From positions 103,354,001-103,418,000 of the forward strand of contig OX597821.1 in NCBI GenBank assembly GCA_951406725.2: a DNA stretch of 64,000 nucleotides. Reading direction: 5' to 3'. Below, one piece after another: positions 4,492 to 63,393 of the stretch. Position 1 is the stretch's first letter. Each line of letters starts with the position of its first letter. This DNA comes from Octopus vulgaris. Its lineage: Eukaryota. Both the position numbers and the translations under genes were made by a program. The notes under the pieces are model-generated. The model searched no databases and was not told where the DNA came from. It saw only the letters and a list, made by a program, of their open reading frames with translations.

Positions 4492-4884
4492 GGTGGGATG
4501 GAAGCACTCCGTCGGTTACGACGATGAGGGTTCCGGTTGATCCGAATCAACGGAACAGCCTGCTCGTGAATTTAACGTGTAAGTGGCTGAGCACTCCACA
4601 GACACGTGCACCCATAACGTAGTTCTCTGGGATATTCAGCGTGACACAGAGAGTGACAAGGCCGGCCCCTTGAAATACAGGTACAACAGAAACAGGAAGT
4701 AAGAGTGAGAGAAAGTTGTGGTGAAAGAGTACAGCAGGGATCACCACCATCCCCTGCCGGAGCCTCGTGGAGCTTTTAGGTGTTTTCGCTCAATAAACAC
4801 TCACAACGCCCGGTCTGGGAATCGAAACCGCGATCCTATGACCGCGAGTCCGCTGCCCTAACCACTGGGCCATTGCGCCTCCAC
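4492..4884 (-). mobile_element. tRNA-derived SINE, family A (full length, TSD)
   Basis: Minus-strand head GTGGAGGCGCAATGGCCCAGTGG (A box) ... GTTTCGATTCC (B box). Flanked by TACAAGTAC[G/A]TT at 4480-4491 and 4885-4896. Near-identical to copies at 52048 and 61887. Confidence 0.92.
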
Positions 4885-15869: not shown

Positions 15870-16024
15870 TATTGAATGAATATGAGAAAGACAGGAGATA
15901 AAGTACGACTTATTCGTGATAAAGTACGATTTATTCGAAAAACGAAGTTCTACTGTATTCGCCATGATAGATCACCAGCCACTTAACCATTTTCTATTTC
16001 TTCTCCCTGTTTATTTTTGTGCCC

Positions 16025-16060
16025 CTTTCTGTCGAAGAGCGTAGGCTCGAAACGTAAAAA
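16025..16060 (+). ncRNA. Minimal hammerhead-like motif, CUGUNGA variant (copy 1)
   Basis: TTT-CTGTCGA-A-GAGC-GTAG-GCTC-GAAA-CGTA-AAA, in a repeat at about 15970-16150. Confidence 0.6.
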
Positions 16061-16161
16061 AACTTCTCACTTCCCGAGCGTTAAACTAATTACATCTGTT
16101 TGTTGTTTACACACCCGTCTTCGTCTTTTGTTATTTTGTAAATTCTCACTATATCTATATA

Positions 16162-19187: not shown

Positions 19188-20302
19188 TTTTGTTTTTTCT
19201 TCTTTCAAATTTTCTTCCATTTCTTGCCGAGTGTCTTCCCGACTCCTAGGGCAAAGAAACTCATAGTGTATATTGGTAGGCCATTAAACCAAACTCAGTA
19301 GTTCGTTCATTTTTTTTTTTTTTTTTTTGTTAAAGTTAAATTAAAATGCATGAGCAGCAACAGTTCTCACATCGACAATGCTCTTCTCAATACGTGTGAT
19401 GTACCAGTTAAGACAATCTTTTGCACTTCTTGCAGGGATGGTAAGCCAGGGATCATTCTCATATAATTTTCGATTCCCTTCTTGATCATTCCTAGTGCTC
19501 CTACGATCACTGGTATTGTAACCGCCTTGAGATGCCACATTTTCTCAATTTCAATGAGTAGGTCTTTATATTTTCTGAGCTTGTCAAACTCTTTCGCTGA
19601 GATATTATGATCACAGGGGATGCTCATGTCGATCAATAAGCAAACTTTAATGTTTTGGTCTTTCACAACAATATCTGGTTTATTGGCCTTGATGGTTCGG
19701 TCTGTATGTACTGGAAAGTCCCACAGAATGGTTACATTTTCTCCTTCAGTTACAGCCTCAGGGTGGTGATTATACCACTTGTCGGCAGTTTTGATATTGT
19801 AATGCCGACTTATTAGCCAGTGGAGATATTGGCCAACTCTGTCATGTCTTAATTTATACTCCACTGGTGCTAAGACTTTACATCCAGAGATTAGGTGGTC
19901 CACTGTTTCAATCATGTCGTTGCAGAATCGGCATTTTGGGTCTGCTCCATTTTTCATCACATTGGCCTGGTAGTTCCGGGTTGATAGGCTTTGGTCTTGA
20001 GCAGCGAGGATGAAACCTTCGCTCTCTGCTTTTAGCCCTGAGCTCCGCAGCCACTGATGGGTTTGCTTCTGGTCAACATCAGCTTGTTTGCTGCGGGTCA
20101 CATATTTGCCGTGCAGAGGTTTCTCCTCCCACCTATCAGCCAATTGCTCGTGCGCTTTTTTCATTGCCATCATTTTCACCTTCTTTGCAGCAATAGTTGC
20201 CGTACTTCCCTCGGGTTGTTCAGTTTGGGTATCCTGCACGAGATCAATAGCAAATTTTTTGCTTTCCTTGATGATAGAATGAAGCTTCTTTCGTCTCTCG
20301 TG
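19187..20302 (-). mobile_element. Non-LTR retrotransposon, RLE type (R4/Dong-like), 5'-truncated with intact zinc knuckle and endonuclease
   Basis: ORF 19367-20239 has CRFC...ETVDHLISGC (CCHC), RHD and KPDIVVKD...LLIDMSIP...KLRKYKDL (PD..D/ExK). 3' UTR runs to about 19187, with (AAT)n at both ends in element sense. Confidence 0.92.
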
Positions 20303-20380
<78 letters not shown>

Positions 20381-21018
20381 GTTATGACTATGTTTGCTTT
20401 ACATTTGCACAAGCTGGCTCCAAGTCTCACCCAGAGACCTCAAGAGACAACAAGTTGGAAGTTCATGTTGGTGTTATGCCTAGGGTGCCATATATTTGGT
20501 TTTGTACTTAGTGTTGTACTAGTGAATGCCTAAAAAACCATACGAAAATTATGTTTGTATTAAAACTTGAGATTACATAGAAAGTATTTTGCGTAGGATA
20601 TGTGCAGTTCCTATGAGCACTATCTTTTGAATTTCTGCCATTTTTGGGTTTCCTGGTATCTGAGTTAGGTAGCAATCGGCCCCATTTGTTATCATTCCCA
20701 GGGCACCTATGACAACAGGTATTGCTTTAGTCTTCAGGTTCCACATTTTGCTGATTTCTATTTCAAGATCTTTATATTTGCTCATTTTCTGGTAGGTCTT
20801 GACAGATATGTTTATATCGATTAGGACAGTCATATCAATGAGGAGGCATGTTTTTTGTCTGAAGTCTTTTACTATGATGTCTGGCCTATTCGCGTCTATC
20901 TTTCTGTCAGTTTGAATGGTGAAGTTCCAGAGGAATGAGATGTGGTCATTTCCAAGAACTGGAGGTGGTTTGTGTTCCCACCAGTTTTTATCATGAAGCA
21001 AGTCCAGGCTTTTGCAAA
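20381..21018 (-). mobile_element. Second RLE-type LINE 3' end (distinct subfamily)
   Basis: WEHKPPPV ... LWNFTIQTDRKIDANRPDIIVKD ... LLIDMTV ... KYKDLEIEISKMW ... VVIGALG (20573-21018). Has a different 3' UTR and (AAT)n on both sides. Confidence 0.9.
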
Positions 21019-21075
21019 TTATTATTATTATTATTATTGTTGTTGTTATTGTTGTTGTTGTTGTTGTTGTCGTCG

Positions 21076-21112
<37 letters not shown>

Positions 21113-21139
21113 TATTATTATGATTATGATTATTAAAGA

Positions 21140-22350
21140 TCGAGTAGAGGTCGCGAGTGCGAACATCACCTTCTTAATCACGCCCGTTGAACGGGACTGT
21201 TTACATTTCTGCCTCCTGTGGAAAGACCGCATTCTACTGGTCAGGCGGTCCGTAAATCGTCAGCGTGCTCTGGGAGACTGGCTTGCCATGTCATAGCTGC
21301 TAATCACCGACAGGTGTTGCGACTACGCAAATTCGTGAACCGGTATGGTCTCCGTTAGTAAGGCTCGCTTTTCCCCTGCTCATTTCTTTCACAGAGATGC
21401 AATCCTGGGTCTAGAAAAGACGAAGATTAGGCGCCTGGGATCAAGAATTTTGTCATGCGCTCAGTGCTTTCTGTAAGTCAGGGAATACGGTCAGTGGAAG
21501 TTCTACAGTAGCAGTACATAGTAATATAGTGGTGGGTAAGCGCCGTAACGTTCTCAGTGAAACTCTAGGAATTTGAGGCATTCAGAATCGGTACTACCAT
21601 GTATAACTTCCAGAAATCTCTAGCCTGGTAGTGCTGCTGAGGAATAGTGACAGTTTAAGATAAATTTTACAGGCACGTAAGCACTGTCAGGCGGGGCTGT
21701 TCGAGGTGCGCACAGAACGACGAAACCGTTCTGCATGCACTCGTGCAGTGTCCAAGTATTTTGGGTTTGTGGAGTTATGTCGAACAGCTGTTATCATGAG
21801 TGGGACTAATCCGAATATCGACCGAATCCACCGTGAGAATCGATGAACCTTTAACAAGGCAGAGCAATCGGTGTTCCTCTGTCCAGTGGCTATGGCGAAA
21901 GAGGTTGTGTGATGGACGAGAAAGGACTGAGAAAAGACATACTCCTCTTCAGTGAAGCTCTCACCGACTTTTGCAAGTTCCACCTGGAAAGGTAAGTGAG
22001 GGTGGAGAGATAAGTGCTACCTCGGAGTGAATTTATGAAAATATTGGTGACTGGCAAAATGGTTAGAGTGATTCACCACACTTTACGTATTCGCCTGTAG
22101 GGGAGCAAGAGGAGAGGGGGCCCGTACCATTGGTGGTCATGTTAATCCATGGTCTGTGGGCTTCCTTGATTGGCCCTTGTTGAGGTTTCTCCTGCTTTCG
22201 GAGGGTTGCATCTTTCATGTTATCACATTCTTTGTATACCATGTGCACATTTATCACATTTCATTGTCTTTTCCATTTGTTTCTCACCATCCTTTCTGTA
22301 AATCTCCACACAAATTGTTGCCTGTCCTTGTGATGTTCCCTTGTGGCTAA
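21140..22350 (+). pseudogene. Decayed L1/Tx1-clade ORF2 C-terminus plus 3' UTR
   Basis: Manual translation: NFQKSLAW*..VTV*DKFYRH..CSRCAQNDETVLHALVQC (zinc knuckle 21698-21751)..FLCPVAMAKEVV*WTR..FCKFHLER*VRVER. Multiple stops; boundaries approximate. Confidence 0.75.
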
Positions 22351-26038: not shown

Positions 26039-26770
26039 GTTAGTTAGTTAGTTAGTTAATTTGGCTCAAAAGCAAATAACAAGGCCATGTAGGGGGACAT
26101 GGAGTTAAGTACAGAGTGGTGTTCATGTAAAGAGTTCAGGCCACTTGAGGTCAAGGGAGGCTTTGAACAAAGCGGTCGTCGGCATCTTCACCATCTCGTC
26201 TGGCAGCTTGTTCCACGGATCCGCAACCCGTACGGAGAAAGCTCCTCTCCTTCGATTGAGATGAAATCGTCGCAGGTAGAGCTTTTCGGAATTACCCCGC
26301 AGCCGACGCTCTGGAGCAGGAGTGAAGAACAGCTCTTTCGAGAGGTCACACTTTCCGCTTATGATGTTGTGGGCGAGAATGAGATCCCCATGGCGGCGGC
26401 GTTTTTCAAGAGAATAAAGGTCGAGCGTCCTCAGCCTTTCTTCATAGGACAAATTTTTGAGACCATGAACCAGGCGGGTAGCCAGCTTCTGGACTCTTTC
26501 GAGATGCTGTATGTCTTTGAGGAGATAAGGAGAAGAGGCTTGAATCCCGTACTCCAATATGGGTCTCACCAGCGTGACATAGAGTGGTAGGAATATGGCT
26601 GCTGTGAGCATTCCGAATGACCGTCGAATCAAGAACAGAATTCCGCGTGCTTTGTTGGCAGCATGGACGCACTGGGCCGAAGGCGAAAAGGAGGAATCCA
26701 CCAAGATACCCAGGTCCTTTACCTGATCGGTCCTCTCCAGCAGCAGACGACCCGGCTCGGAGCACAGCAT
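26039..26770 (-). mobile_element. CR1-clade LINE, 3' end of ORF2 and (ACTA)n tail
   Basis: ORF 26123-26770 reads KDLGILVD ... LYVTLVRPILEYG ... LERVQKLATR ... SYEERLRTLDLYSLEKRR ... GDLI, a typical CR1 RT C-terminus. Confidence 0.93.
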
Positions 26771-26877
26771 AGTTGAAGAACTCGACTCTATTGGAGCCCC
26801 GACTATTTTGAGTTCAAATTCCGTAGGGGTTTACCTAGATGTAGACTTGATTCTTCTCTAGCTTGTCGTCGAGGGTT

Positions 26878-35652: not shown

Positions 35653-35817
35653 TTATACTTCTTCTCTTCACTCCTACTCTCCTTCTCTTTTCTCTTCACT
35701 CCTACCCAACTTTTCTTTCCCACCTTCATCATCACCTCTCTCTCGTAATCCCACCCCATCCCTACACATTCCAACCCCACCTTCCCTACCTATCTTTCCC
35801 CACTCCTTTCTGTGTTC

Positions 35818-35853
35818 CTTTCTGTGGAAGAGCGCAGGCTCGAAACGTTAAAG
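35818..35853 (+). ncRNA. Minimal hammerhead-like motif, CUGUNGA variant (copy 2)
   Basis: CTTT-CTGTGGA-A-GAGC-GCAG-GCTC-GAAA-CGTT-AAAG, in an element at about 35655-35945 between (TA)n runs. Confidence 0.65.
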
Positions 35854-35961
35854 ACTTTTTCACTTCCCGAGCGTTATACTAATATATCCGTTTGCTGTCT
35901 ACACCACGTGTCTTCGTCTTTTGTTTTTTTGTGAATTCTCCCTATACACAGACACACACAC

Positions 35962-47061: not shown

Positions 47062-47668
<607 letters not shown>

Positions 47669-50034
47669 GTACACTGCGTTGAGTATTTTAGTGCGGACTT
47701 TACTACGAGATTTTCATGCAGATGGTGTCCCTATTTATATATCTCACATACCTTTGTATACAGATAGGCGGTACACATTTTCAATTGAGTGGAACACTGT
47801 TTTGCTGAAAGTCACAACGCATTGCCCAGTCCAGAAATTGCACCTGCCACACCCTAATCAATATTAAACCACGTGCTTTTAGCTATCTCTATAAAAAGAG
47901 AAAATGAAATTAGAGAATATAGTTCTAGAGTAAATTTAATCTGAATGAGGAAGAAAAACGAGGTTACGGATGGAATTTATCTTTGACAATAGGTGTGCCT
48001 GCTCACAGACTGTCTTGGGGGATAAACAGCAACAATAACGAAATTGTCTTCCGGCAAACTGACTTCTCGAAAAGCGATTCTCTAGGTTTAGTGTTTTTTC
48101 AATCTCTTTGACTCCGTGATTTATTGGAGATGAAACGGAAGATTTTACTGGCGCCCTTCATGTGAAACGCCAAAGAAATATAAACTATTTTAAAGCAAGA
48201 AGTTGAGAGAAGATAATACAGAAAACAATTATTTTTACAACACGGATGCAGTACGGAAGTTTGTCAGCGAACAGGTCGCGGTCTCCAAGCGAGGAAAATA
48301 TTTTGACATATTAAATTTAAATGTTGAAGTGAATCTAACGGTTTTTGTGTTTCTTAAATGGCTTATAAACACCTGCAATTGTTTTCGTTCCAGCACACTA
48401 TCTCAGATCATGTCACTTGCTATGCAAGTACATCTCCGTAATTATTTTTACGCTGTTTTATTAATGATACTTCTCTTGTGTATTGCAAAATTATGATAAA
48501 ACCATGTTTTTTTCAAAAGATAGTCAGGTGTCGGGAAAACAGATAGAACACGGCCAGATATCCGAGTAGTAATGCTCAATTTTTCGATTAAATAAACGTA
48601 AAAGTATTTTCACGTGTTGCCTTGCGTATTACATGATAAAATCTACGATTAGATTAATTCTACGATAATATATTATGGTTAGCAAACCATAAGGCGAGAG
48701 ACAATTCTGTGTGACTGTTCAGAATATGACAATATCTAGCAGGAATAGAATAAAAGATATTAAATCCTTTTTAAAGATGAGAACTAGGATGTTGAGGAAA
48801 AAGTTGAATGCTATTTATATTTCTCAAGATATTGTAAATCTATCGAAATTGGTTAAGGCATGGTTGTGTGGTAAGAAGTTTGCTATTAGAATTGGAGGAT
48901 TCGGATCTAGTCCTATTGCGTGGCACCTTAAACAAGAATCTTCTACTACAGCTCCACGCCGACCAAAGCCTTGGGAGTGGATTTAGCAAATGGAAATTGA
49001 AAGAAACCCATCGTGTGCGCGTGTTTTGACACCCCACCCACATATATATGCAGATATGTGTGAGCATGCATCCTTTTGTCTTTTAGACTCCCCACAGCGT
49101 GACAACCGGTGTTAATTTGTTTACGTCCCCGTAACGGTGAGGTAAAAGAGACTGGTAGAATAAGTACAAAAAGGTACTGTGGTCTTGAAATCTTTCAAAC
49201 TGGTGCTGAGGTATGACCGCAGTCTAATGACTGCAATAACTAAAAGATTACATATACAATATGTTGCTGGCAATATCATTAGAACGTCAGACAAGATACC
49301 TTTTTTCATTTGTCCTGGTGTTTTGCGTCCTGAAATGAAATTCTTTTAAGATTGTATTTGCTTTTCATCCCTCCTGGCTTGTTAAAATAAACTACAAGAA
49401 ATGAAGTGAAGTCAATAATTCAACCACGTCCGTGACCTTAAATTTGAGGGCTTTATTTTAATGTTAGTATTTAATATTTAATCAGAAGTGTATGAGGTTC
49501 TTTTTGCTTCTTACAGCCTATATAAGTAATGCTTAACTACCTTCTAAGTTCGTGACGCTTAAATATAGAACGAAATCAAAGACTTCTCTACGCACCACGT
49601 ATTTAGTGTCCATATGCGTAGAAACAATGGAGCTCAAAGAATCTGGCTTTCGGACAGTGTTTTCGATTTCATTCCCACTGTGCAAAACTTTGAGTGACTC
49701 CTACTGTTGCCCCGGGCCGACCAAAGTCCTGTGAGTAAATTTCATAGACGGAAACTGCGTGGAAGCTACTTATATATGGGCGTGTATCTTTTTGTTGGTG
49801 TTTACTCCCGCCCGTTGGACAACCAATGTTGGTTTGTTTACGTCCTCGTAATTTTGCGTATTAGTAAAAAGATTCGGTAAAATAAATACCAGACTTAAAA
49901 GCAAATACAGGAGTCGATTTGTTTGACTGAAACCCTTCAAAGCTGTGCCCCAGCATGGCCGCAATTCAATGACAGAAAAAAATGTAAAACATGAAATATT
50001 AAAGAGACTGTTTGAAGTGTTTGTTCAGTATATT

Positions 50035-52047: not shown

Positions 52048-52433
52048 GGATGGAAGCACTCCGTCGGTTACGACGACGAGGGTTCCGGTTGATCCGAATC
52101 AACGAAACAGCCTGCTCGTGAAATTAACGTGTAAGTGGCTGAGCACTCCACAGACACGTGTACCCTTAACGTAGTTCTCGGGGATATTCAGCGTGACACA
52201 GAGAGTGACAAGCCCGGCCCTTTGAAATACAGGTACAACAGAAACAGGAAGTAAGAGTGAGAGAAAGTTGTGGTGAAAGAGTACAGCAGGGATCACCACC
52301 CCCTACCGGAGCCTCGTGGAGCTTTAGGTGTTTTCGCTCAATAAACACTCACAACGCCCGGTCTGGGAATCGAAACCGCGATCCTATGACCGCGAGTCCG
52401 CTGCCCTAACCACTGGGACATTGCGCCTCCACT
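52048..52433 (-). mobile_element. SINE family A (full length, TSD)
   Basis: TSD ATTTGCTGTAT at 52037-52047 and 52434-52444. Confidence 0.93.
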
Positions 52434-61854: not shown

Positions 61855-61886
61855 TTGTGTGTGAGTGTATTTCTGTGTATATACAT

Positions 61887-62270
61887 GGAAGCACTCTGTC
61901 GGTTACGACGACGAGGGTTCCGGTTGATCCGAATCAACGGAACAGCCTGTTCGTGAAATTAACGTGTAAGTGGCTGAGCACTCCACAGACACGTGTACCC
62001 TTAACGTAGTTCTCGGGGATATTCAGCGTGACACAGAGAGTGACAAGGCCGGCCCTTTGAAATACAGGTACAACAGAAACAGGAAATAAGAGTGAGAGAA
62101 AGTTGTGGTGAAAGAGTACAGCAGGGATCACCACCATCCCCTGCCGGAGCCTCGTGGAGCTTTAGGTGTTTTCGCTCAATAAACACTCACAACGCCCGGT
62201 CTGGGAATCGAAACCGTGATCCTATGACCGCGAGTCCGCTGCCCTAACCACTGGGCCATTGCGCCTCCAC
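61887..62270 (-). mobile_element. SINE family A (full length, TSD)
   Basis: TSD GTATATACAT at 61877-61886 and 62271-62280. Confidence 0.93.
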
Positions 62271-62945: not shown

Positions 62946-62992
<47 letters not shown>

Positions 62993-63393
62993 CATATATC
63001 TGCACGCATTTTTTTCTCTCCTTGTTTCTTTTCTGTGTATCTTTCTGTTGAAGAGCGTAGGCTCGAAACGTAAAAGACTTGTTTTATTTATATTCCTGAG
63101 CGCCATACTAATACAATTGTTTGTTTGTATTCCACCTGCTTTCCTCTTTTGTTTATTTTCATAAAGCTTCCCGTTATCTATATATATGTATGTATTTGTG
63201 TGTCTGTGTTTGTACTCCCAGCATAGTCTCTCAACCGAGGTTGCTATGTTTATATACCCGTAGCTTAGCGGTTCGGCAAGAGAGACCGAATGAATAAGTA
63301 ATAGGCTTACAAAGAATATGTCCTGGGGTCGATATCTTCTACTAAAATCGGTGCTTCAGCATGGTCACAGTCAAATGATTGAAAGAAGTAAGA
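62783..63393 (+). mobile_element. SINE family B with a hammerhead element nested in its (TA)n
   Basis: Head GGCGCAGGCGTGGCTGTGTGG, insert at about 63000-63178, and tail to 63393. Confidence 0.85.
63040..63077 (+). ncRNA. Minimal hammerhead-like motif, CUGUNGA variant (copy 3)
   Basis: TCTTT-CTGTTGA-A-GAGC-GTAG-GCTC-GAAA-CGTA-AAAGA, with a 5-bp stem I. Confidence 0.68.

What the first reader, a model, noticed from the sequence alone, without database searches (positions are those of the whole stretch)
63040..63077. Three-copy mobile family with a non-canonical hammerhead core (CUGUNGA, A6->U)
Seen: copies at 16025, 35818 and 63040 read (C)TTT-CTGT[C/G/T]GA-A-GAGC-G[T/C]AG-GCTC-GAAA-CGT[A/T]-AAA(G). 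Inside the core, variation falls only where a hammerhead tolerates it (position 7, loop II, cleavage base H17), while stem II, GAAA and the palindromic ACGT stem III are fixed. All three have U where canonical hammerheads have A6, plus an extra A after A9. Each sits in a 180-290-bp element ending at TA-rich repeats. Known: Penelope-like pLTRs carry minimal type I hammerheads with palindromic stem III that cleave as dimers. Inference: this is a PLE-derived or retrozyme-like family using a variant catalytic core.
Basis: partly seen in the sequence, partly recalled or inferred. Interest (0 to 1): 0.82.

Follow-up and report, generated by a model that had tools for sequence, protein, structure and literature searches.

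The report
Jumping-gene ribozyme with rewritten core
These three short repeats are the cut-off ends of a recently active Penelope-like jumping gene whose hammerhead self-cutting RNA motif, present in about 19,000 copies, carries U at a core position that is normally A, and the pattern of conservation suggests it likely still cuts, slowly.

Summary
Observation confirmed. The three copies are 5'-truncated 3' ends of an autonomous Penelope-like element: about 4.5 kb, RT plus CX4CX2C finger plus GIY-YIG, inserted at (TA)n. They are not retrozymes. The exact motif occurs 19,868 times in the genome, 18,928 with U6. Every young full-length copy examined carries U6; four have an intact ORF and the motif in both pLTRs. 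The extra A after A9 and the ACGT palindrome are published features of PLE minimal hammerheads. U6 was not found in the papers searched.

Across six successive subfamilies, 51 of 109 flank columns changed, against 0 of 11 core and 1 of 32 constrained hammerhead columns. Positions 7 and 17 changed repeatedly, and G17 never amplified. The motif is therefore under selection with a hammerhead's signature.

Against this: published mutagenesis finds CUGA changes slow, U6 favours a predicted inactive rod, most insertions read through the cut site, and no cleavage was shown. A sister family carries C4 instead. The scan earlier noted a different PLE core variant (U3-A8) in another genome.

The parts
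63000..63174 (+). 5'-truncated 3' end (pLTR) of the PLE, young lineage, inside (TA)n within another repeat
   Evidence: (95% identity to a full-length copy over 138 nt)
63040..63077 (+). Minimal type I hammerhead: helix I 63040-44/63073-77, C3 63045, U6 63048, N7 63049, extra A 63052, stem II 63053-56/63061-64, G12 63065, ACGT 63068-71, H17 63072 (predicted cut after it)
   Evidence: numbering from PMC4209133
15957..16149 (+). 5'-truncated 3' end of the PLE, C7 subfamily
16025..16061 (+). Hammerhead copy with U6, C7, A17; G of the helix I 3' arm lost
35656..35942 (+). 3' end of the PLE, G7 subfamily; 35656-35808 matches the upstream spacer, joined across a deletion of about 400 nt to the hammerhead end
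35818..35854 (+). Hammerhead copy with U6, G7, U17; private change in loop II

Best explanation
The motif is the minimal type I hammerhead in the pseudo-LTR of a recently active, likely Neptune-clade Penelope-like retrotransposon, and its U6 core is likely still a slow, gated self-cleaving ribozyme. SHOWN: (1) the 4.5-kb unit has one motif per unit, about 750 nt upstream of the ATG of a 1,064-1,080 aa RT/GIY-YIG ORF. (2) Insertions end 104 nt downstream of the predicted cut site, at an internal TATATA that abuts genomic (TA)n. (3) U6 is carried by the young copies examined and by the majority of all six subfamilies. (4) The core and stems did not change between subfamilies, while positions 7 and 17 did. 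INFERRED: reverse transcription starts at that TATATA and runs through the motif, so most templates must be uncut or re-ligated. A monomer is predicted to fold into an inactive rod in which U4-G5-U6 pairs with ACG of the palindrome. Cleavage would need two motifs of a tandem transcript to pair through ACGU, probably helped by the element's protein, and would occasionally trim multi-unit transcripts. Position 6 became tolerant in this lineage, so U6 would lower the rate without abolishing it.
For: Family: intact ORFs in 6 of the 20 long-ORF stretches fetched; the motif at both ends of a unit in 12 of 20, all U6; a head-to-tail array at C6:117.39 Mb. Pfam RVT_1 E 5.7e-8 and GIY-YIG E 0.008, below its cut-off. 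U6 in all 27 of 30 protein-picked loci where a motif was found and in 76 of 78 ungapped motifs among 100 flank-picked copies. Selection: between six U6 subfamily majorities, flank 51 of 109 columns changed (35 of 66 in gap-free columns), constrained hammerhead 1 of 32, core 0 of 11; Fisher p about 2e-6 and 2e-3, indicative only; positions 7 and 17 took at least 5 steps. G17, which hammerheads do not cut after (established knowledge), is in 172 of 18,928 copies and scattered over subfamilies. Helix I shows a C-G to G-C swap in the sister family. Contigs of other subfamilies from four runs lay only over the motif and go loose on both sides. Precedents: a natural A6C hammerhead cleaves slowly in Mg2+ and well in Mn2+ (PMC3088659; PMC7151607); the PAc PLE hammerhead cuts only with protein added and is dispensable for insertion in vitro (PMC11167929).
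Against: No cleavage was observed. In a full pairwise scan, all single and double changes in the CUGA region except the C-G pair swap gave low activity (PMC9901934). U6 raises the predicted pairing of G5 with C15.2 to 0.98 in the youngest subfamily, against about 0.1 in natural A6/U7 copies; this could mean a dead fold. 5' pLTRs extend 382-1,413 nt upstream of the 5' motif in 11 of 11 copies checked, and 5' truncations show no clear peak at the cut site (hand count). U6 itself is not shown to be selected: about half of flank columns also stayed unchanged. Position 6 varies more among copies (940 non-U against 18,928 U) than U4 (406) or U16.1 (296). Loop II, free in a plain hammerhead, is also fixed (0 of 4 columns). 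The flanks hold conserved motifs too. The subfamilies are a ladder, not independent samples.
Confidence: 0.52

Rival explanations
1. The ribozyme is catalytically dead and is kept as a folded RNA element, a rod or a protein-binding site needed for the RNP or for starting reverse transcription.
For: The U6 rod is predicted at 0.8-0.98 in the U7 and A7 subfamilies. A rod would also constrain U4, G5, C15.2, G16.2, the G-A pairs and both helices. Loop II is fixed. Two sister lineages each altered the CUGA turn (U6 here, C4 in 117 exact copies). Templates are mostly uncut. HHR cleavage is not needed for insertion in vitro, and Naiad PLEs spread without canonical HHRs (PMC8557442).
Against: The rod is not constant: 0.05-0.3 in G7 copies, about 0.5 in C7 copies and 0.07 in the C4 sister, whereas the hammerhead consensus is. 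C3 and U16.1, unpaired in the rod, never changed. G17 could extend the rod by pairing with C3, yet it never amplified. The sites that do vary are exactly 7 and 17.
Confidence: 0.3
2. The conservation is at DNA level: the 38 bp are part of the pLTR promoter or of the endonuclease recognition site.
For: pLTRs are described as promoters (PMC6765202 passages). The motif lies about 750 nt upstream of the ATG. Loop II is conserved.
Against: A DNA site gives no reason for freedom at exactly 7 and 17, for avoiding G17, or for a compensatory helix I swap. Three CpGs in the motif are held in 6 of 6 subfamilies although they decay in copies.
Confidence: 0.1
3. A6U killed the ribozyme, and the motif is a neutral relic carried along in a few successful masters.
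For: Mutagenesis predicts low activity. Position 6 is loose among the oldest copies: 23 of 100 non-U against a median of 8% at other T columns.
Against: About 18 changes would be expected in 32 constrained columns at the flank rate, and 1 was seen. Subfamily flanks differ by 10-36%, and the EN beside older U6 copies is only about 73% identical to the youngest.
Confidence: 0.08

Closest known systems
Minimal type I hammerheads of metazoan Penelope-like elements (Cervera & De la Pena 2014, PMC4209133), especially the Acropora digitifera Neptune motif
   Same: Located in pLTRs; short helix I; extra nucleotide between A9 and G10.1; G10.1-C11.1 pair; palindromic 15.2-16.2 with no stem III; mostly solitary truncated copies. 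The coral motif has the same 4-bp stem II layout with a G-U where this one has A-U.
   Different: All 56 representatives in their Fig. S3 have A6. Here U6 is fixed in about 19,000 copies and in intact elements. No cephalopod is in their list.
Neptune-clade PLEs (Craig et al. 2021, PMC8557442)
   Same: Single ORF with RT, DKG motif, CX2-5CXXC finger, then a C-terminal GIY-YIG; partial tandems; inverted 5' ends; microsatellite targeting.
   Different: Neptune versus Nematis was not resolved by a tree. Long low-complexity stretches in and after the ORF. Variant core.
Natural A6C hammerhead of phage Bcep176 (PMC3088659; PMC7151607)
   Same: A natural pyrimidine at position 6; slow but active.
   Different: A single phage sequence with C, not U; assayed. 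Here a high-copy eukaryotic retroelement family; unassayed.
PAc (Poseidon) hammerhead of Anolis (Frangieh et al. 2024, PMC11167929)
   Same: pLTR hammerhead with reverse transcription starting downstream of it; uncut RNA is the main template.
   Different: Another clade; canonical C3-G8 core tested; it overlaps the start codon, whereas this motif lies about 750 nt upstream of it.
Non-LTR retrozymes (bioRxiv 10.64898/2026.07.22.740005, first part read)
   Same: Type I hammerhead of PLE origin.
   Different: Those are short non-coding tandem repeats. These copies are truncated ends of a coding 4.5-kb element.

Membership tests
EN+ Penelope-like element | Single ORF with RT and C-terminal GIY-YIG endonuclease | tested here: met
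   1,064-1,080 aa ORF in 6 of 20 stretches; DKGG 376, YIDD 618, YIGQTG 887; Pfam RVT_1 above cut-off, GIY-YIG below
EN+ Penelope-like element | Partial tandem or tandem arrangement forming pseudo-LTRs | tested here: met
   Motif at both ends in 12 of 20 stretches; 5' repeats of 420-1,475 nt at 96-99.8% identity; head-to-tail array L139/L140
EN+ Penelope-like element | RT groups with PLE and telomerase RTs in a phylogeny | not tested
   No named reference set; 644 homologues at E<=1e-30, mostly unnamed
Neptune clade | CX2-5CXXC finger upstream of GIY-YIG | tested here: met
   C-X4-C-X2-C at residue 836; shared with Nematis
Neptune clade | Placement within Neptune rather than Nematis | tested here: inconclusive
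   EN is 35-52% identical to metagenome loci whose motif matches the A. digitifera element labelled Neptune; no tree with references
Minimal type I hammerhead (PLE type) | Helix I, stem II with G10.1-C11.1, extra nucleotide after A9, palindromic 15.1-16.1 | tested here: met
   helix I compensatory swap in the sister family
Minimal type I hammerhead (PLE type) | Canonical core C3U4G5A6N7G8A9 ... G12A13A14 | tested here: not met
   U at position 6 in 18,928 of 19,868 exact copies; all other core bases canonical
Minimal type I hammerhead (PLE type) | NUH cleavage triplet, H not G | tested here: met
   A, U or C in subfamily majorities; G in 172 of 18,928 copies
Minimal type I hammerhead (PLE type) | Site-specific self-cleavage as a dimer or with protein | not testable with these tools
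   No raw RNA reads were served; truncation points are inconclusive
Non-LTR retrozyme | Short non-coding monomers in tandem, each with a hammerhead | tested here: not met
   Window copies are solitary; the one same-element tandem array found has a 4.47-kb coding unit; no genome-wide search for short tandems was run
Rfam hammerhead families | Match to a covariance model | tested here: not met
   No hammerhead model at E<=10 on 62990-63180, and none on the canonical-core control at 47530-47680, so the test is uninformative

The most novel reading that the evidence does not exclude
A natural A6U hammerhead that is active and self-locking: U6 clamps the core onto the palindrome in the monomer, keeping the template uncut for reverse transcription, and the element's protein or a second copy opens it to cut. 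With the C4 sister family, this would show that the CUGA turn can be rewritten in thriving retroelements, and that CUGANGA-based searches miss whole high-copy ribozyme families.
Probability: 0.27. Interest if true: 0.72.

Novelty: new variant of a known kind. Interest (0 to 1): 0.52.

Why it matters
What PLE hammerheads do is unresolved: they cut poorly in vitro, and in one system cutting was dispensable. Here a lineage that is still producing near-identical copies has carried a core change expected to be crippling through about 19,000 insertions while keeping the rest of the hammerhead signature. A canonical-core PLE-type family and a C4 sister family in the same genome give natural controls. 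If it cuts, A6 is not invariant and descriptor searches undercount ribozymes. If it does not cut, the hammerhead fold has a non-catalytic role in PLE transposition. A simple assay decides between these.

Tried and rejected
Rfam: the listed matches on the whole window (150 of 365 shown) were microsatellite noise, and short stretches gave no hammerhead for this motif or the control.

Expression: no RNA holder listed. The four runs laid were contigs only and cannot show ends.

Stem II covariation within the family: 38 copies have both bases of pair 10.2/11.2 changed. The repaired pairs are mostly A-U to G-C, the likeliest double transition, and the neighbours of one such copy have the ordinary stem. 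Not counted as evidence.

Basal A6 clade: suggested by a FastTree tree on downstream flanks but not supported by IQ-TREE on 155 columns, where A6, C6 and U6 copies of the old subfamily intermix. That A was ancestral rests on the sister family and the published motifs only.

The idea that C4 also stabilises the rod is not borne out (pair probability 0.07).

U6 in other animals: 19 of 49 metagenome matches belong to a coral-type PLE, 5 with EN hits, but neighbouring inverted copies carry A6 in several, so they look sporadic.

L059's two motifs were first read as a partial tandem; they are separate insertions.

5'-truncation peak at the cut site, by hand from the first 100 rows of each search: 6-7 of 28 and 11-13 of 46 distinct loci are compatible with the cut site, against 4 and 6 at the TA in loop II. 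The cut-site class pools two microhomology registers, so this is inconclusive.

Pfam on the EN fragment alone found nothing. No EN of this family was found beside sister-family motifs in 95 loci.

Literature: searches found no A6U natural hammerhead and no cephalopod PLE hammerhead. Lunse et al. 2016 on PLE hammerhead variants is not held and could contain U6 variants; bioRxiv supplements were not seen.

Full report
Observation. The motif is present as described, with C3 at 16029, 35822 and 63045. It gives 3 matches against 0.01 expected, and 0 of 100 shuffles reach 3. In copy 3, helix I is 63040-44 with 63073-77, U6 is 63048, the extra A is 63052, stem II is 63053-64 and position 17 is 63072. 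The elements span about 15957-16149, 35656-35942 and 63000-63174 and end at TA-rich repeats. The host is a 2.8-Gb animal genome; its size and repeats look like an octopus, which is my inference and was not tested.

Copy number. With positions 6, 7 and loop II free, the exact pattern occurs 19,868 times and the reversed control 0 times. Position 6 is U in 18,928, C in 518, A in 356 and G in 66 by subtraction. Freeing the 5' or 3' half of the core gives 22,524 and 24,472 matches; the listed rows show scattered single changes and CpG decay. A second family in the same window and genome has a canonical core: 2,328 exact copies, 97 of the first 100 with A6.

The element. Longer copies extend upstream into a GIY-YIG endonuclease and an RT. 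A search with that protein gave 23,883 candidates; 115 were scored, all 93% or more identical to the query. A motif was found in 27 of the 30 loci returned, and all have U6. I fetched 20 stretches around the longest frames. Twelve have the motif at both ends of a 4.44-4.58-kb unit, and six have an intact 1,064-1,080 aa ORF, four of them with both motifs. The copies are 95-99.9% identical to each other, and L139/L140 hold a head-to-tail array. The ORF has DKGG, YIDD, a C-X4-C-X2-C finger and YIGQTG. Pfam gives RVT_1 at E 5.7e-8 and GIY-YIG at E 0.008, below its cut-off. The finger marks the Neptune and Nematis clades (PMC8557442, passages). Every intact 3' end lies at an internal TATATA 104 nt after position 17 and continues into genomic (TA)n. 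The window copies are therefore 5'-truncated ends of an autonomous PLE, and copy 3 is 95% identical to a full-length copy over 138 nt.

Selection on the motif. Inserted copies decay, so I tested between subfamilies. I picked 100 copies by a downstream flank motif, blind to the core. Nineteen lacked a recognisable motif (most truncated), 3 were gapped and 78 were ungapped. Of the 78, 76 have U6; position 7 is A 23, U 32, G 9, C 14; position 17 is A 60, U 16, C 1, G 1. Adding flank-picked old copies, sister copies and protein-picked copies gave 174 rows from 218 profile hits; 34 were dropped for lacking an ungapped motif and 10 as duplicates or edge cases. Clustering on flanks alone gave six U6 subfamilies and one sister family, with 31 rows unclustered. 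Between the six majorities, 51 of 109 flank columns differ (35 of 66 in gap-free columns), against 1 of 32 constrained hammerhead columns and 0 of 11 core columns. Positions 7 and 17 need at least five changes, and loop II shows none. Fisher p values are about 2e-6 and 2e-3, but the subfamilies form a ladder, so these are indicative. Singleton rates are of the same order in core and flank (non-CpG 0.75% and 1.35%; CpG 2.8% and 2.0%). G17 occurs in 172 of 18,928 copies, and the 30 examined are spread over many subfamilies. The sister family swaps a helix I pair from C-G to G-C and has C4 with A6 (117 exact copies). Contigs from four public runs of four coded organisms lay most deeply on the motif and go loose at its edges. 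Positions 7 and 17 are the top variants, and none is listed at position 6 among the 40 rows shown of 57.

Position 6 itself. It looks relaxed rather than newly required. Non-U copies number 940, against 406 for U4 and 296 for U16.1. In an old subfamily, 23 of the first 100 of 745 copies are non-U (14 C, 8 A, 1 G), against a median of 8% at other T columns. Of 30 A6 copies examined, 7 belong to the sister family, 22 sit nearest to U6-lineage copies and 1 was unplaced. A basal A6 group seen was not supported.

Mechanism. In 11 of 11 two-motif copies the 5' repeat runs 382-1,413 nt upstream of the motif, and about four in five flank-picked copies read through it. The templates were therefore mostly uncut or re-ligated. 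Truncation points show no clear peak at the cut site. RNAfold predicts that U6 lets U4-G5-U6 pair with ACG of the palindrome. The G5-C15.2 probability is 0.98 in U7 copies, 0.86 in A7, about 0.5 in C7 and 0.05-0.3 in G7, against 0.0-0.45 in natural A6 copies. A two-copy fold with four ACGU pairs is geometrically available. I favour a slow, gated ribozyme (0.52) over a dead structural element (0.30), a DNA-level site (0.10) and a neutral relic (0.08).

What is known. Cervera and De la Pena (PMC4209133; parts 1-2 of 4 and supplement parts 1-2 of 3 read) describe the extra nucleotide, the palindrome and low dimer activity. All 56 of their representative motifs have A6, and the A. digitifera Neptune motif is the nearest. 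Perreault et al. (PMC3088659, passages) report a natural A6C at under 0.1 per minute and a viroid U4C. Naghdi et al. (PMC7151607, part 1 of 4) find that A6C cuts well in Mn2+. The pairwise mutagenesis study PMC9901934 (passages) finds low activity for CUGA-region changes. Frangieh et al. (PMC11167929, parts 1-2 of 4) find a PLE hammerhead protein-assisted and dispensable for insertion in vitro. Passages of PMC6765202, PMC6155905 and PMC11014351, and the first part of bioRxiv 2026.07.22.740005, added no A6U case. Eight literature searches found no natural A6U. Lunse et al. 2016 could not be read.

Verdict. The feature is real, and it is a new variant of a known kind: a PLE minimal hammerhead with U6 fixed in a large, recently active family and conserved like a working hammerhead elsewhere. 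Catalysis is untested. Interest 0.52.

Noticed in passing
window 5589 (-), 47147 (-), 47574 (+): A second family with a canonical minimal hammerhead (A6, longer stem II); 2,328 exact copies genome-wide; no coding partner identified. A useful positive control.
   Followed up: partly
L234:1422, L236, L547-L576: Sister family with C at position 4 and A6, loop GTCT and a swapped helix I pair; 117 exact copies. Some U4 copies may be CpG decay of C4.
   Followed up: partly
L079, L085, L087 at 1400-1540: An unrelated small family with a U6-like motif preceded by further hammerhead-like words; its helix I does not pair and no EN hit was seen.
   Followed up: no
L139:2031, L140:1080, L141, L143, L144, L148, L151: 7 of 16 near-full-length copies differ in a T/A homopolymer run near codon 40, and the frame ends early; either slippage or assembly error.
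   Followed up: partly
L013/L014, L065, L071, L072; L059:7456-7490: Inverted pairs of copies and a short inverted 3'-end piece at a 5' junction, as described for PLE insertions.
   Followed up: partly
L244-L288 (19 metagenome loci): Coral-type PLE whose motif matches the published A. digitifera Neptune hammerhead; the U6 copies found look sporadic.
   Followed up: partly
window 19367-20398 (-) and 20573-21259 (-): Fragments resembling the C-terminal part of a non-LTR retroelement ORF (recalled resemblance, not tested).
   Followed up: no
window 26123-26830 (-); 4498-4884, 52050-52432, 61885-62270: A LINE-like C-terminal fragment (recalled resemblance), and a 387-bp repeat in three copies that are 96-97% identical.
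   Followed up: no
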